Assembly (NCBI RefSeq): GCF_028641065.1
Contig: NW_026576865.1
Coordinates: 1-64,000, forward strand
Source of the DNA: Leucoraja erinacea
Lineage: Eukaryota
DNA length: 64,000 bases
Direction: 5' to 3'
Shown piece by piece: positions 25,353 through 37,745 of this stretch. Numbering within the stretch: the first letter of the stretch is position 1; the number at the start of each line of letters is the position of its first letter. A model generated the notes under the pieces. The model did not search any database and was not told the origin of the DNA. It saw only the letters and a program-made list of their open reading frames with translations. The translations under genes and the position numbers were made by a program.

Positions 25353-25499
25353 TCAGAGAAACGCATCGCACCACTCCCGTAGACAGCGGTAACAGTCCTC
25401 CGACTGCCGGTTGCCGGCGAAGCAGACCTGTCTCAGCCAACTCTTGAATGCCGTCTTGTCCTGTTTCAGCAGCAAGAACTGGCCCAGAACATCCTTGGC
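25353..25499 (-). CDS. BANF1-like paralog, terminal coding exon
   Basis: ctctgcccccttccag acceptor, then [51 protein letters not shown]. It is 147 nt, the same size and phase as the BANF1 last exon. Confidence 0.9.
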
Positions 25500-25664
25500 C
25501 TGGAAGGGGGCAGAGAAACGTGTTAGCTCTGCGTTGTTGAGTCGCGCTGTTACGTGCGGTCGCGATGGCGCAGCGGTAGAGTAGCAGCGCCGGAGACCCG
25601 GGTTCCATTCCCACTACCGGCCACTTCCTCTACAGAGTTTGTACATCCCCCCCCTCCGTGAGTT

Positions 25665-26275
25665 AGAAACATAGAAACATAGAAATTAGGTGCAGGAGTA
25701 GAGGCCATTCGGCCCTTCGAGCCTGCACCATTCGCCATTCAATATGATCATGGCTGATCATCCAACTCAGTATCCCGTACCTGCCTTCTCTCCATACCCC
25801 CTGATCCCCTTGGCCACAAGGGCCACATCTAACTCCCTCTTAAATATAGCCAATGAACTGTGGCCTCAACTACCCTCTGTGGCAGAGAGTTCCAGAGATT
25901 CACCACTCTCTGTGTGAAAAAAGTTCTCCTCATCTCGGTTTTAAAGGATTTCCCCCTTATCCTTAAGCTGTGACCCCTTGTCCTGGACTCCCCCAACATC
26001 GGGAACATTCTTCCTGCATCTAGCCTGTCCAACCCCTTAAGAATTTTGTAAGTTTCTATAAGATCCCCCCTCAATCTCCTAAATTCCAGAGAGTATAAAC
26101 CAAGTCTATCCAGTCTTTCTTCATAAGACAGTCCTGACATCCCAGGAATCAGTCTGGTGAACCTTCTCTGCACTCCCTCTATGGCAATAATGTCCTTCCT
26201 CAGATTTGGAGACCAAAACTGCACGCAATACTCCAGGTGTGGTCTCACCAAGACCCTATACAACTGCATACAACT
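25665..26275 (-). mobile_element. CR1 (HER1-like) 3' end with (TTTCTATG)n tail
   Basis: ORF 25829-26296 encodes the CR1 C-terminus, with a tail at 25665-25685. Confidence 0.9.
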
Positions 26276-26284
26276 TCTATCTGT

Positions 26285-28210
26285 ACATAGAAACATAGAA
26301 AATAGGTGCAGGAGGAGGCCGTTCGGCCCTTCGAGCCAGCACCGCCATTCACTGTGATCATGGCTGATCGTCCCCTATCAATAACCCGTGCCTGCCTTCT
26401 CCCCATATCCCCTCTCCCCACTAGCCTCTATCTAACTCTCTCTTAAATCCATCCAGTGACTTGGCCTCCACTGCCCTCTGCGGCAGGGAATTCCACAAAT
26501 TCACACAACTCTCTGGGTGAAAACGTTTTTTCTCGCCTCAGTCTTAAATGACCTCCCGTTTATTCTAAGACTGTGTGTGTGTGTGGCCCCTGGTTCTGGA
26601 CTCGCCCAACATTGGGAACATTTTTCCTGCATCTAGCTTGTCCAGTCCTTTTATAATTTTATATGTTTGTATAAGATCCCCCCCCCTCATCCTTCCAAAC
26701 TCCAGTGAAGAGCTCCTTAGAGCTGTACAGGCCCTTCGGCCCACTGAGTGCATGCCGACCAGCATGTCCTTCCTGCTCTAGGACTTCTCATATGTTTCTA
26801 TAAGATCCCCCCCCTCATCGTTAAATGACCTCCTCTTTATTCTCCGAGATCTTCGGTTTCCTCCCACCACTCAAAAGGTTTGTAGGTTAATTGGCTTTGG
26901 TAAATGTAAAAATTGTCCCTAGTGGGTGTAGAATAGTGTTAATGGGATAGGATAGGGGATCGCTGGTCGGCACGGTCCCGGTGGGCCGAATGGCCTGTTT
27001 CACTGCTGTATCTCTAAACTAAATAAACTAGACTTAGTTTAGAGTCCAGTACAAGATTATGAGAGGACTAGATCGGGTAAACAGGGACAACAGATGCCAT
27101 TCGGCCCTTCCAGCCAGCACCGCCCATTCAATGTGATCATGGCTGATCATCCAAAATCAAAACCCAGTTCCTGCCTTCTCCCCAAATCCCTTGATTCTGT
27201 TCGCAGAGACAAAGAGTCTCTTGCCCAGAGTAGGGGAATCGCAGACCAGAGGACACAGGTTCAAGGTGAAGGGGGAAATGATTGAATAGGAATCGAAGGG
27301 GTCACATTTTCCACACACCCAGTGACTTGGCCTCCACTGCCCTCTGTGGCAGGGAATTCCACAAATTCACACAACTCTCTGGGTGAAAAGGTTTTTTCTC
27401 ACTTCAGTCTTAAATGGCCTCCCCTTTATTCTAAGACGGTGTGTGTGTGGCCCCTGGTTCTGGCCTCGTTGGGTGTATGGAACGAGCTGCCGGAGGAGGT
27501 AGGTGAGGCTGGGACTCTCCCAATGTTTAAGAAACAGTTGGACAGGTACATGGATAGGACAGGTTTGGAGGGATATGGACCAAGTGCAGGCAGGTGGGTC
27601 TAGTGTAGCTGGGACATGTTGGCCGGTGTGGGCAAGTTGGGCCGAAGGGCCTGTTTCCATGCTGTATCTCTCGATGACTCTAAGAATAGTCTCTTGTCCA
27701 GAGTAGGGGAATCGAGGATCAGAAGACATTGGTTAAAGTGATGGAGGGGGAGAGAAGATTTAATAGGAACCTGAGGGGTAACTATTTTTACACAGAGGTT
27801 GGTTAGTGTCGATGGAACGAGCTGCCGGAGGAGGTAGTTGAGGCAAGGATTTGTTGATACCTGGCCATTGAAACATATAAGATTGTTAAGGGGCTTGGAC
27901 ACACTAGAGGCAGGAAACATGTTCCCGATGTTGGGGGAGTCCAGAACCAGGGGCCACACACACACAGTTTAAGAATAAAGGAGACGAGGAAACACTTTTT
28001 CTCACAGAGTTGTGAGTCTGTGGAAGTCTCTGCCTCAGAGGGCGGTGGAGGCCAGGTTCTCTGGATGCTTTCAAGAGAGAGCTGGATAGAGGTGTTAAAG
28101 ATAGCGGAGTCAGGGGATACGGGGAGCTGATTGGGGATGATCAGCCATGATCACATTGAATGGCGGTGCTGGCTCGAAGGGCCGAATGGCCTCTACTCCT
28201 GCACCTATTG
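26285..28210. mobile_element. Cluster of nested CR1 and V-SINE fragments in both orientations
   Basis: Repeated CR1 3' motifs ([27 protein letters not shown], gatcagccatgatc 3' UTR) and SINE tails. Confidence 0.75.
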
Positions 28211-28411
28211 TCAATTGCCAATTAACCCACAAACCCGCACGTCTTTGGAGTGTGGGAGGAAAACCCACGCAGAACGTGCAAACACCACTCAGACAGCACC
28301 CGTAGTCGGGATCGGACCCAGGTCCCTGGCGCTGAGAGGCAGCAACTCTACCGCTGCCCCACCGAAGGCCGTCATATGTTAAATCCTACTCTTTGCTTCC
28401 TGTCTGCCAAC

Positions 28412-35600: not shown

Positions 35601-35674
35601 ACTCTGAACTATAACAGCCTATTGCACTTTATCTGTTTATTTATGTGTGTGTGTATATATATATTCTATGGTGT

Positions 35675-36840
35675 ATGCATTTGATAAGGTCCCACATAGC
35701 AGATTAGTGGGCAAAATGAGGAGACACATGGTATTGGGGGTAGAGTGCTGACATGGATAGAGAAGTGGTTGGCAGACAGGAAACAAAGAGTAGAGATTAA
35801 CGGGTCCCTTTCAGAATGGTAGGCAGTGACTAGTGGAGTACCGCAAGGCTCGGTCGGAGCTGGGACCGCAGCTATTTATAATATACATCAATGGTTTGGA
35901 TGAAGGGATTCAAAGTAACATTAGCAAATTTGCAGATGACACAAAGCTGGGCGGCAGTGTGAACTGTGAGGAGGATGCTATGAGAATGCAGGGTGACTTG
36001 GACAGGTTGGGAGAGTGGGCAGATGCATGGCAGATGAAGTTTAATGCGGATAAATGTGAGGTTATCCACTTTGGTAGCAAAAACAGGAAGGCAGATTACT
36101 ATCTAAATGACGCCAAGTTGGAAAAAGGGGAAGTACAACGGGATCTGGGGGTCCTTGTTCATCAGTCTATGAAAGTAAGCATGCAGGTACAGCAGGCAGT
36201 GAAGAAAGCGAATGGCATGTTGGCCTTTATAACAAGAGGAATCGAATATAGGAGCAAAGAGGTCCTTCTGCAGTTGTACAGGGCCCTAGTGAGACCACAC
36301 CTGGAGTATTGTGTGCAGTTTTGGTCCCCTAATTTAAGGAAGGGACATTCTTGCTATTGAGGGAGCCCAGCGTAGGTTTACAAGGTTAATCCCCGGGATG
36401 GCGGGACTGTCATATGCTGAGAGAATGGAGCAGCTGGGCTCGTACACTCTGGAGTTTAGAAGGATGAGAGGGGATCTCATTGAAACATATAAGATTGTAA
36501 AGGGCTTGGACACACTAGAGGCAGGAAACATATTCCCGATGTTGGGGGAGTCCAGAACCAGGGGCCACACACACACACACAGTTTAAGAATAAGGAGTAA
36601 GCCATTTAGAACGGAGACGAGGAGACACTTTTTCTCACAGAGAGTGGTGAGTCTGTGGAATTCTCTGCCTCAGAGGGCGGTTCTCTGGATGCTTTCAAGA
36701 GAGAGCTAGATAGGGCTGTTAAAAGATAGCGGAGTCAGGGGAGAAGGCAGGAACGGGGTACTGATTGGGGATGATCAGCCATGACCACATTGAATGGCGG
36801 TGCTGGCTCGAAGGGCCGAATGGCCTCTACTCCTGCACCT
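35675..36840 (+). mobile_element. CR1 ORF2 RT to 3' end (~1.15 kb)
   Basis: [17 protein letters not shown] and [13 protein letters not shown] motifs, with frameshifts. Confidence 0.9.
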
Positions 36841-36844
36841 GTTG

Positions 36845-37350
36845 AACAGATCCTGGTGAACTTCTACCGCTGCACCATCGAGAGCATCCTTACCAACTGC
36901 ATCACAGTATGGTACGGCAACTGCTCTGTTTCCGACCGGAAGGCATTGCAGAGGGTGGTGAAAATTGCCCAACGCATCACCGGTTCCTCGATCGCTCCCC
37001 TCCATTGAGTCTGTCCAAAGCAAGCGCTGTCTGCGGAGGGCGCTCAGCATCGCCAAGGACTGCTCTCACCCCAACCATGGACTGTTTACCCTCCTACCAT
37101 CCGGGAGGCGCTACAGGTCTCTCCGTTGCCGAACCAGCAGGTCGAGGAACAGCTTCTTTCCGGCGGCTGTCACTCTACTCAACAACGTACCTCGGTGACT
37201 GCCAATCACCACCCCCCCCCCACAGACACTTATTATTATTTATTCAAATCATTTGCTATGTCGCTCTTCAAGGGAGATGCGAAATGCATTTCGTTGTCTC
37301 TGTACTGTACACTGACAATGACAATTAAAATTGAATCTGAATCTGAATCT
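36845..37350 (+). mobile_element. Rex/Babar-type LINE 3' end with (TCTGAA)n tail
   Basis: ILVNFYRCTIESILTNCITVWYG...LLPSGRRYRSLRCRTSR. The same family occurs at 5368-5733. Confidence 0.85.
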
Positions 37351-37489
37351 GTTATCTATTGTATGGCCACACTGATTTGTATTTATGCCGTCTATATTCT
37401 GTTGTGCCGAAGCAAAGCAAGAATTTCATTGTCCTGTCTGGGACACGACAATAAACTCTTTTGACTTAGGGTCCCCTCCGGCATTTTTG

Positions 37490-37745
37490 GGGGCGCTGTC
37501 TCTCCGAGGAGCGTACAAAATGGCGGCCGCGCCCCCCCCTCGCTACGCCACCCGTCCTCACCTTTGTCTGAGTTAACGTCGCTGACAACGGAAGCTCGGA
37601 AATCCATCCTCCGATTCGCTCGGTAAGCCGTGACAGTCAATGCAGTCTCCTCACCTCCTCGTTTCCCCCAAAGCTTTGCTAGATTTGGGGCGAGTGAGAG
37701 GGGGGGGGTGTGGGGGGGGGGGCTAAGTCTCGGGTCAGCCATTGT
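37490..37745 (-). promoter_or_regulatory. CpG-rich putative promoter/first-exon region of the BANF1-like paralog
   Basis: Local CpG enrichment, YY1 consensus AAAATGGCGGC at 37517-27, CGGAAG ETS core, and two minus-strand GTGAG donors. Confidence 0.5.
37562..37607 (-). CDS. BANF1-like paralog, proposed first coding exon (N-terminal extension)
   Basis: AGGATGG strong Kozak context, MDFRASVVSDVNSDK+G, AAG|GTGAGG donor. Phase 1 matches the 32245 acceptor, and it lies in the only CpG-rich non-repeat island between the two BAF genes. Confidence 0.6.

What the first reader, a model, noticed from the sequence alone, without database searches (positions are those of the whole stretch)
25353..37607. 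Second, divergent BAF gene in tandem with BANF1, with an N-terminal extension and altered interaction surfaces
Seen: an intact spliced ORF of about 112 aa (exons 37562-37607, 32100-32245, 25353-25499) with canonical junctions, the same last-intron position as BANF1 and its own poly(A) signal. It lacks Met1 and instead gains about 24 residues (MDFRASVVSDVNSDKEKPPSYPVA). It keeps T2/T3/S4, K6, GIG and the [10 protein letters not shown] end, so it is BANF1-like and not BANF2/BAF-L. In human numbering it carries A12V, G16K, E28L, D40C, Y43K, V44D, L58A, N70G and R75E, while the neighbouring copy keeps the canonical residue at all of these. Established: A12 is at the lamin A/C interface (A12T causes Nestor-Guillermo progeria), G16R is a reported neuropathy variant, L58 contacts LEM domains, helix 3 forms the dimer interface, and N70/R75 lie near DNA. 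Inference: a neofunctionalised or modulatory BAF (heterodimer partner, germline-specific, or tuned against retroelement DNA).
Basis: partly seen in the sequence, partly recalled or inferred. Interest (0 to 1): 0.8.

Follow-up and report, generated by a model that had tools for sequence, protein, structure and literature searches.

The report
Third BAF gene of cartilaginous fishes
Sharks, rays and a chimaera carry an extra, strongly conserved version of the DNA-bridging nuclear protein BAF, lying beside the normal gene in the sharks and rays checked; it likely still binds DNA and pairs with normal BAF but is predicted to hold the nuclear envelope more weakly.

Summary
The gene is real. The three minus-strand exons, GT-AG junctions, 112-aa frame and poly(A) signal are as described, and the protein equals RefSeq XP_055487774.1 (little skate, 'BAF A-like'). 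It is annotated, but I found no paper on it. Orthologues occur in 17 chondrichthyan species, chimaera included, and none turned up outside the group. It lies between a cystatin gene and the true BANF1 (next to EIF1AD and SART1); the probable BANF2 is on another chromosome. After an early burst of change (stem 0.52 changes per site) it became more conserved than BANF1 (ray versus shark: 5.8 against 9.4 differences in 88 residues). The HhH DNA motif and the G47 dimer core are intact; LEM contacts L58 and E61 are lost. A modelled BANF1 heterodimer passes, possibly from memory of the solved dimer. Best reading: a DNA-binding BAF that pairs with BANF1 and is loosened from envelope partners. Expression and function were not shown. 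The 89-residue tree does not settle whether it came from BANF1 or BANF2.

The parts
37562..37607 (-). Coding exon 1 of the BAF paralogue: first 15 codons of the N-terminal extension
   Evidence: starts M-[DE]-[LF]-R in 11 of 11 full-length orthologue models compared, K15 in 11 of 11, D14 in 10 of 11
32100..32245 (-). Exon 2: rest of the extension and BAF residues 1-41 (human numbering), with T/T/S phospho-sites, K6, K16 and the GIG helix-hairpin-helix
   Evidence: (PF02961, 55.6 bits)
25353..25499 (-). Exon 3: BAF residues 42-89 and stop; carries K43, D44, Q54, A58, S61, F68, G70, E75
   Evidence: (PF02961, 62.4 bits)
25156..25161 (-). AATAAA poly(A) signal of the paralogue, 192 nt below the stop codon
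   Evidence: use not shown
44534..44676 (-). BANF1 first coding exon (20 nt of UTR, ATG at 44656)
   Evidence: protein equals XP_055487775.1
40615..40761 (-). BANF1 last coding exon
39351..39364 (-). Two AATAAA signals of BANF1, about 1.75 kb above the paralogue's start codon
51248..51364 (+). EIF1AD exon, divergent from BANF1 (synteny marker)
   Evidence: matches human EIF1AD chains, E 5e-15
63050..63136 (-). SART1 C-terminal coding exon (synteny marker; limits approximate)
   Evidence: PF03343, E 2.2e-14
12836..18927 (+). Two exons of a type-2 cystatin gene (synteny marker; limits approximate)
   Evidence: PF00031 hits; cystatin C/M chains

Best explanation
This is an old second BAF gene of cartilaginous fishes, lying in tandem with BANF1, whose protein likely still binds double-stranded DNA and pairs with BANF1 and itself, but is predicted to bind nuclear-envelope LEM proteins and, in sharks and rays, lamin A/C more weakly. 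Shown: gene structure, tandem position, presence from chimaera to skate, strong conservation, intact BAF fold residues, and the set of fixed changes. Inferred: (1) origin by tandem duplication of BANF1 before the chimaera-shark split, with an upstream ATG recruited from the formerly non-coding first exon; (2) DNA binding kept through K6, G25-I26-G27, V29, L30 and a core net charge of +4/+5, with N70G and R75E weakening one subsite; (3) a rewired but working dimer seam, where D44 would face K53 of the partner and K16 would mimic the human G16R bridge to the partner's C-terminus; (4) loss of L58 and E61 weakening LEM binding. The net effect would be a BAF that bridges or compacts chromatin without tethering it to the envelope, and shifts BANF1 that way when mixed with it.
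For: Orthologues in 17 species and none outside Chondrichthyes among the hits listed. Clade 100/100, stem 0.52, short crown. Ray-versus-shark differences per 88 residues: 5.8 (18 pairs) against 9.4 for BANF1 (18 pairs) and 7.7 for the chromosome-8 gene (15 pairs). Six positions at least 90% fixed in 115 ordinary BAFs carry the usual residue in 0 of the 21 paralogue rows. Model pLDDT 83.8, matching human BAF 1ci4 at TMt 0.95. Heterodimer with skate BANF1: score 0.91, best control 0.18, contacts agree 100% across runs, partner pLDDT at least 93; the mark was reached by 51 of 78 solved and 2 of 108 mismatched pairs (eukaryotes 39 of 65 and 2 of 126). Positions 16, 43 and 44 are in that interface, and 44 touches 53'. 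Human G16R raises DNA affinity sevenfold through a bridge to Leu89' (PMC10099716). L58 and E61 are LEM contacts and A12 a lamin contact (PMC6212729). BAF L58R bridges DNA without LEM binding (PMC5638020).
Against: The heterodimer pass may be from memory: the solved BAF homodimer is 65% identical, and close cousins pass readily. It does not show binding or co-expression. N70T and R75W weaken DNA binding (PMC8606531) and R75E reduced DNA and emerin binding (PMC2173821); the paralogue has G70 and E75. L58A is milder than L58R, and 6 of 8 LEM contacts are unchanged or carry residues common in ordinary BAFs. A heterodimer could still bind LEM through the BANF1 half. Position 12 is G or S in chimaera, so the lamin argument is not clade-wide. 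The tree does not place the clade with BANF1: held-together trees are 2.5 and 7.3 log units worse, and 2.2 for BANF2, none rejected.
Confidence: 0.4

Rival explanations
1. An independent homodimer with a new partner or cell type: the rewired seam favours self-pairing, and the new fixed surface (F/Y68, N71, Q54) plus the conserved extension motif bind something BANF1 does not.
For: Tighter conservation than BANF1. An aromatic residue at 68 in 21 of 21 rows, where ordinary BAFs mostly have G, S, N or Q. Extension residues M1, R4 and K15 are invariant in 11 of 11.
Against: The heterodimer model passes. The extension is predicted disordered (pLDDT under 50 for 1-20), and carpet sharks and chimaera have an internal Met allowing short forms. 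No partner was identified.
Confidence: 0.25
2. A BAF-L-like inhibitor: it no longer binds DNA well and dampens BANF1 by forming heterodimers, convergent with mammalian BANF2.
For: N70G and R75E/D are fixed and both positions matter for DNA binding in human BAF. Lizard BAF-like proteins also show A58, N61 and E75. BAF-L is reported to heterodimerise and not bind DNA (bioRxiv 2024.05.16.594580).
Against: K6, G25, I26, G27 and L30 are invariant in the clade, whereas lizard BANF2-like proteins lose G27. Core charge is +4/+5 against a mean of -1. R75 is present in only 32 of 115 ordinary BAFs.
Confidence: 0.2
3. A largely redundant, tissue-partitioned BAF that does the same job as BANF1; the changes are compensated and neutral.
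For: The fold, the G47 core, W62, F39, Q48 and 6 of 7 lamin contacts are kept. Duplicates often split expression (general knowledge).
Against: Radical clade-wide changes at six near-invariant positions on one long stem; 0 of 263 other BAF rows carry the four-residue signature.
Confidence: 0.12
4. Pseudogene or chance splice model.
Against: Open frames in 17 species, 92% core identity skate to white shark (82 of 89), conserved exon 1, and skate-paralogue-versus-BANF1 dN 0.32, dS 1.29 (rough).
Confidence: 0.02

Closest known systems
BANF1 / BAF (Pfam PF02961)
   Same: Fold, HhH motif, G47 dimer core, N-terminal T/S sites, last-intron position, same locus; 58 of 89 identical to skate BANF1 and 57 of 89 to human.
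   Different: 23-residue extension; clade-wide changes at 16, 40, 43, 44, 54, 70; LEM contacts 58 and 61 lost; core charge +4/+5 against about -1.
BANF2 / BAF-L
   Same: A divergent vertebrate BAF paralogue; heterodimer with BAF is reported for BAF-L and modelled here; A58, N/S61 and E75 are shared with lizard BAF-like proteins.
   Different: The skate already has a separate gene on chromosome 8 that groups with fish, frog and lizard BAF-like proteins at 98/95, on the chromosome carrying the best RRBP1-type hit. The paralogue lies outside that group in the best tree, sits at the BANF1 locus and keeps the full HhH motif.
Human BAF G16R variant
   Same: Basic residue at 16 (K or R in 21 of 21 rows) facing the partner's C-terminus.
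   Different: In people it is a single pathogenic change; here it is fixed together with changes at 40, 43, 44 and 54, so the effect may differ.

Membership tests
BAF family (PF02961) | Profile match above the curated cut-off | tested here: met
   132.2 bits against cut-off 25
BAF family (PF02961) | BAF helical fold | tested here: met
   Model pLDDT 83.8; Foldseek 1ci4 E 1.1e-9, TMt 0.95
BAF family (PF02961) | HhH DNA-binding residues K6, G25, I26, G27 | tested here: met
   Invariant in all paralogue rows that cover them; N70 and R75 are changed
BAF family (PF02961) | Dimer through the helix 43-53 around G47 | tested here: inconclusive
   G47, L46, L50 kept; Y43K and V44D fixed. The heterodimer model passes (0.91 against 0.18) but may be from memory of the solved dimer. 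The homodimer was not modelled.
BAF family (PF02961) | Measured dsDNA bridging, LEM and lamin binding | not testable with these tools
   Needs purified protein
BANF1 orthologue | Canonical residues and position next to EIF1AD | tested here: not met
   The neighbouring gene fills that role: 74 of 89 identical to human and divergent from EIF1AD
BANF2 / BAF-L orthologue | Groups with BANF2-type proteins in a tree | tested here: inconclusive
   Outside the 98/95 BANF2-type group in the best tree, but AU p 0.37 for joining it and 0.096 for joining lizard BANF2 alone. No mammalian BANF2 was in the set.
BANF2 / BAF-L orthologue | Location at the BANF2 locus | tested here: not met
   It lies at the cystatin-BANF1-EIF1AD-SART1 locus; another gene on C8 is the BANF2 candidate. 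Human gene orders are recalled, apart from the label BANF1-CST6 seen in PMC9333104.
BANF2 / BAF-L orthologue | Testis-biased expression and loss of DNA binding | not testable with these tools
   Tissue labels are not given for the runs, and binding needs experiment

The most novel reading that the evidence does not exclude
Cartilaginous fishes have kept, since before the chimaera-shark split, a dedicated high-affinity, envelope-uncoupled BAF: a natural separation-of-function protein that fixes the equivalent of a human disease variant (G16R), drops LEM and lamin tethering, and serves a specialised chromatin-compaction or DNA-shielding role (for example in sperm, oocytes or cytoplasmic DNA) through its own dimer seam and N-terminal motif.
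Probability: 0.2. Interest if true: 0.7.

Novelty: new variant of a known kind. Interest (0 to 1): 0.45.

Why it matters
BAF is usually treated as one near-invariant gene plus the BAF-L modulator. A third lineage that changed near-invariant interface residues once and then froze them harder than BANF1 is a ready natural experiment on which BAF functions (DNA bridging, LEM tethering, lamin binding, phospho-switch) can be separated. It may also show how a basic residue at position 16, pathogenic in people, is tolerated. It does not introduce a new kind of system, and the gene model was already in RefSeq.

Tried and rejected
Expression: no RNA holder was listed for the last exon. Laying 4 of the 23 listed runs over the gene at 88% likeness was swamped by intronic repeat reads; the 15 joints shown, of about 5,970, did not include either splice junction. 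Tree placement: 42 chosen rows x 89 columns leave the attachment open; four AU tests rejected nothing. First fold with the 18-row clade alignment was poor (pLDDT 60.5) and was replaced. Covariation among 147 thinned non-clade BAF rows gave D/E40 with K/R53 an odds ratio of 23 against 1-11 for ten other pairs; kinship and general divergence were not corrected, so it is only a hint. My first guess of a 40-54' contact was not borne out: neither position is named in the modelled interface. Three of six fixed changes among 16 interface positions is not a significant excess (hand estimate, p about 0.07). Orthologue dN/dS could not be computed because no DNA of relatives is held. Search for a Vps5/SNX5 marker near the C8 gene found none on C8. 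The bacterial promoter scan does not apply. Earlier findings: three look-ups returned nothing. Rows left out: P0022 (long model with the same core as P0004) and one unlisted member of cluster 2.
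Full report
Observation. The three exons lie on the minus strand at the stated coordinates, with GT-AG introns, an open 112-codon frame and a single AATAAA 192 nt below the stop. 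The start has A at -3 and G at +4; an in-frame ATG also lies further upstream, so a longer form is not excluded. The product is identical to RefSeq XP_055487774.1, 'barrier-to-autointegration factor A-like', Leucoraja erinacea. The neighbour at 44656-40615 equals XP_055487775.1. Both have their last intron after K41.

Surroundings. Pfam scans of 270 of 410 open stretches (all of those outside 25.1-37.4 and 40-45 kb but a few overlapping frames at 38-39 kb) found a cystatin gene at about 12.8-18.9 kb, EIF1AD at 51.2 kb and the end of SART1 at 63.1 kb. From recall, human 11q13.1 runs SART1-EIF1AD-BANF1-CST6; I saw only the label 'BANF1-CST6' in one passage of PMC9333104. So the 40-45 kb gene is the BANF1 orthologue and the paralogue is inserted between it and the cystatin. 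A genome search found one more intact BAF gene, on C8, and one exon remnant.

Distribution. Orthologues are on record for 17 species: batoids, sharks and Callorhinchus. In 11 of the 17 the paralogue and BANF1 share a scaffold length or have consecutive accession numbers (consecutive in 6: Leucoraja, two Chiloscyllium, Rhincodon, Cetorhinus, Pristis); the other 6 were not checked. This is indirect evidence of conserved tandem order. In the full-length search, identity fell from 71% or more for the five clade clusters to 67% or less for the other 115 listed, of 316 hits. Among 148 new representatives from a profile search (best 150 of 980 listed) none had more than 5 of 9 signature residues. None of 263 non-clade rows had K/R16, K/R43, D44 and Q54 together; 3 unnamed rows had K/R43 with D44. 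The duplication therefore predates the chimaera-elasmobranch split (about 400 million years, recalled); loss in bony vertebrates is not excluded.

Tree. With 42 chosen rows and 89 columns the clade has 100/100 support, a stem of 0.52 and short crown branches. The C8 gene groups at 98/95 with fish, frog and lizard 'BAF-like' proteins, which I read as BANF2; the best RRBP1-type hit is also on C8, 36 Mb from the intact gene and 1.4 Mb from the remnant. The clade's attachment is open: AU p was 0.37 with BANF2, 0.30 with chondrichthyan BANF1, 0.36 with all BANF1 and 0.096 with lizard BANF2 alone. Origin from BANF1 rests on gene order, not on the tree.

Selection. Rays and sharks differ at 5.8 of 88 residues in the paralogue, 9.4 in BANF1 and 7.7 in the C8 gene. 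Between the two skate copies dN is 0.32 and dS 1.29, rough because dS is near saturation and GC3 is high. A burst of change followed by tight conservation is the usual sign of a new function; that step is inference.

Residues. Core net charge is +4 or +5, against a mean of -1 and a range of -3 to +3. The extension starts M-[DE]-[LF]-R and has K15 in 11 of 11 full-length models; 6 to 9 of the first 15 residues match the skate. It is predicted disordered. Chimaera and carpet sharks have a Met just before the core, so the extension likely arose by using an ATG in the old non-coding first exon; the exon-2 acceptor sits at a similar distance from the core start in both skate genes.

Mechanism. DNA: K6, G25, I26, G27 and L30 are invariant. 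Human G16R bridges to the partner's Leu89 and binds DNA sevenfold better (PMC10099716, passages). Against this, N70T and R75W weaken binding about twofold (PMC8606531, passages) and R75E reduced DNA and emerin binding (PMC2173821, parts 1-2 of 7). Positions 72 and 75 also partner the phosphorylated N-terminus (PMC8053085, passages). LEM: 2 of 8 listed contacts, L58 and E61, are changed to residues seen in 0 of 115 ordinary BAFs; lamin: only position 12 of 7, to V or L in elasmobranchs and G or S in chimaera (PMC6212729, passages). BAF L58R shows that bridging works without LEM binding (PMC5638020, passages). Dimer: the complex of skate BANF1 with residues 23-112 scored 0.91, best control 0.18, with full contact agreement and partner pLDDT of at least 93; the mark was met by 51 of 78 solved and 2 of 108 mismatched pairs. 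A like complex is solved, so the pass may be memory. The model puts 16, 43 and 44 at the seam and 44 against 53 of the partner, so D44 could pair with the retained K53; this is inferred. I put 0.4 on a DNA-binding, envelope-loosened partner of BANF1, 0.25 on an independent homodimer with a new partner, 0.2 on a BAF-L-like inhibitor, 0.12 on redundancy and 0.02 on a pseudogene.

Expression was not shown; the read lay was uninformative (see Tried and rejected).

Literature. Six searches of the held library (listings and abstract starts only) found no paper on a chondrichthyan BAF paralogue. In the cichlid banf2 paper (PMC8268354, passages) no passage shown dealt with it. BAF-L properties come from a review and a preprint (PMC13443024 and bioRxiv 2024.05.16.594580, passages); Tifft 2006 itself was not read. 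PMC11811190 gave one passage of no use here. Subscription papers are not searched, and no supplements were read; gene lists in shark genome or transcriptome supplements may mention it.

Verdict. A real, annotated, apparently unstudied third BAF lineage of cartilaginous fishes with rewired interfaces: a new variant of a known kind, interest 0.45.

Noticed in passing
G000:C8:69448927-69454352 (L005, L002): Third BAF gene, the probable BANF2 orthologue; in cartilaginous fishes it is still very BAF-like (GIG, K6, Y43, V44, L58 kept), unlike the lizard BANF2-type proteins.
   Followed up: partly
G000:C8:31999135-31999248 (L007, L010): Remnant copy of the C8 gene's first coding exon, 76% identical, with a four-codon deletion in the GIG region; no last exon found in the 30 kb fetched. 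It lies 1.4 Mb from the RRBP1-type hit.
   Followed up: partly
proteins P0004, P0005, P0021 (Callorhinchus milii): At least three different paralogue-type sequences in the chimaera, one on a longer branch (0.21); possibly further duplication. No canonical chimaera BANF1 appeared among the listed hits.
   Followed up: no
window 37517-37527 (-): A YY1-like motif (recalled consensus) 35 nt into intron 1; 1 match in the window, 0.03 expected, 3 of 100 shuffles. Two similar motifs are visible just below exon 2.
   Followed up: partly
window 24554-25003 (-): Reverse-transcriptase fragment (PF00078, E 2e-15), likely a LINE piece, just below the paralogue's poly(A) signal.
   Followed up: no
window 12836-18927 (+): Cystatin gene in the place of human CST6 but in the opposite orientation relative to BANF1 (human orientation recalled); its best structure hits are chicken cystatin and cystatin C rather than cystatin M.
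   Followed up: no
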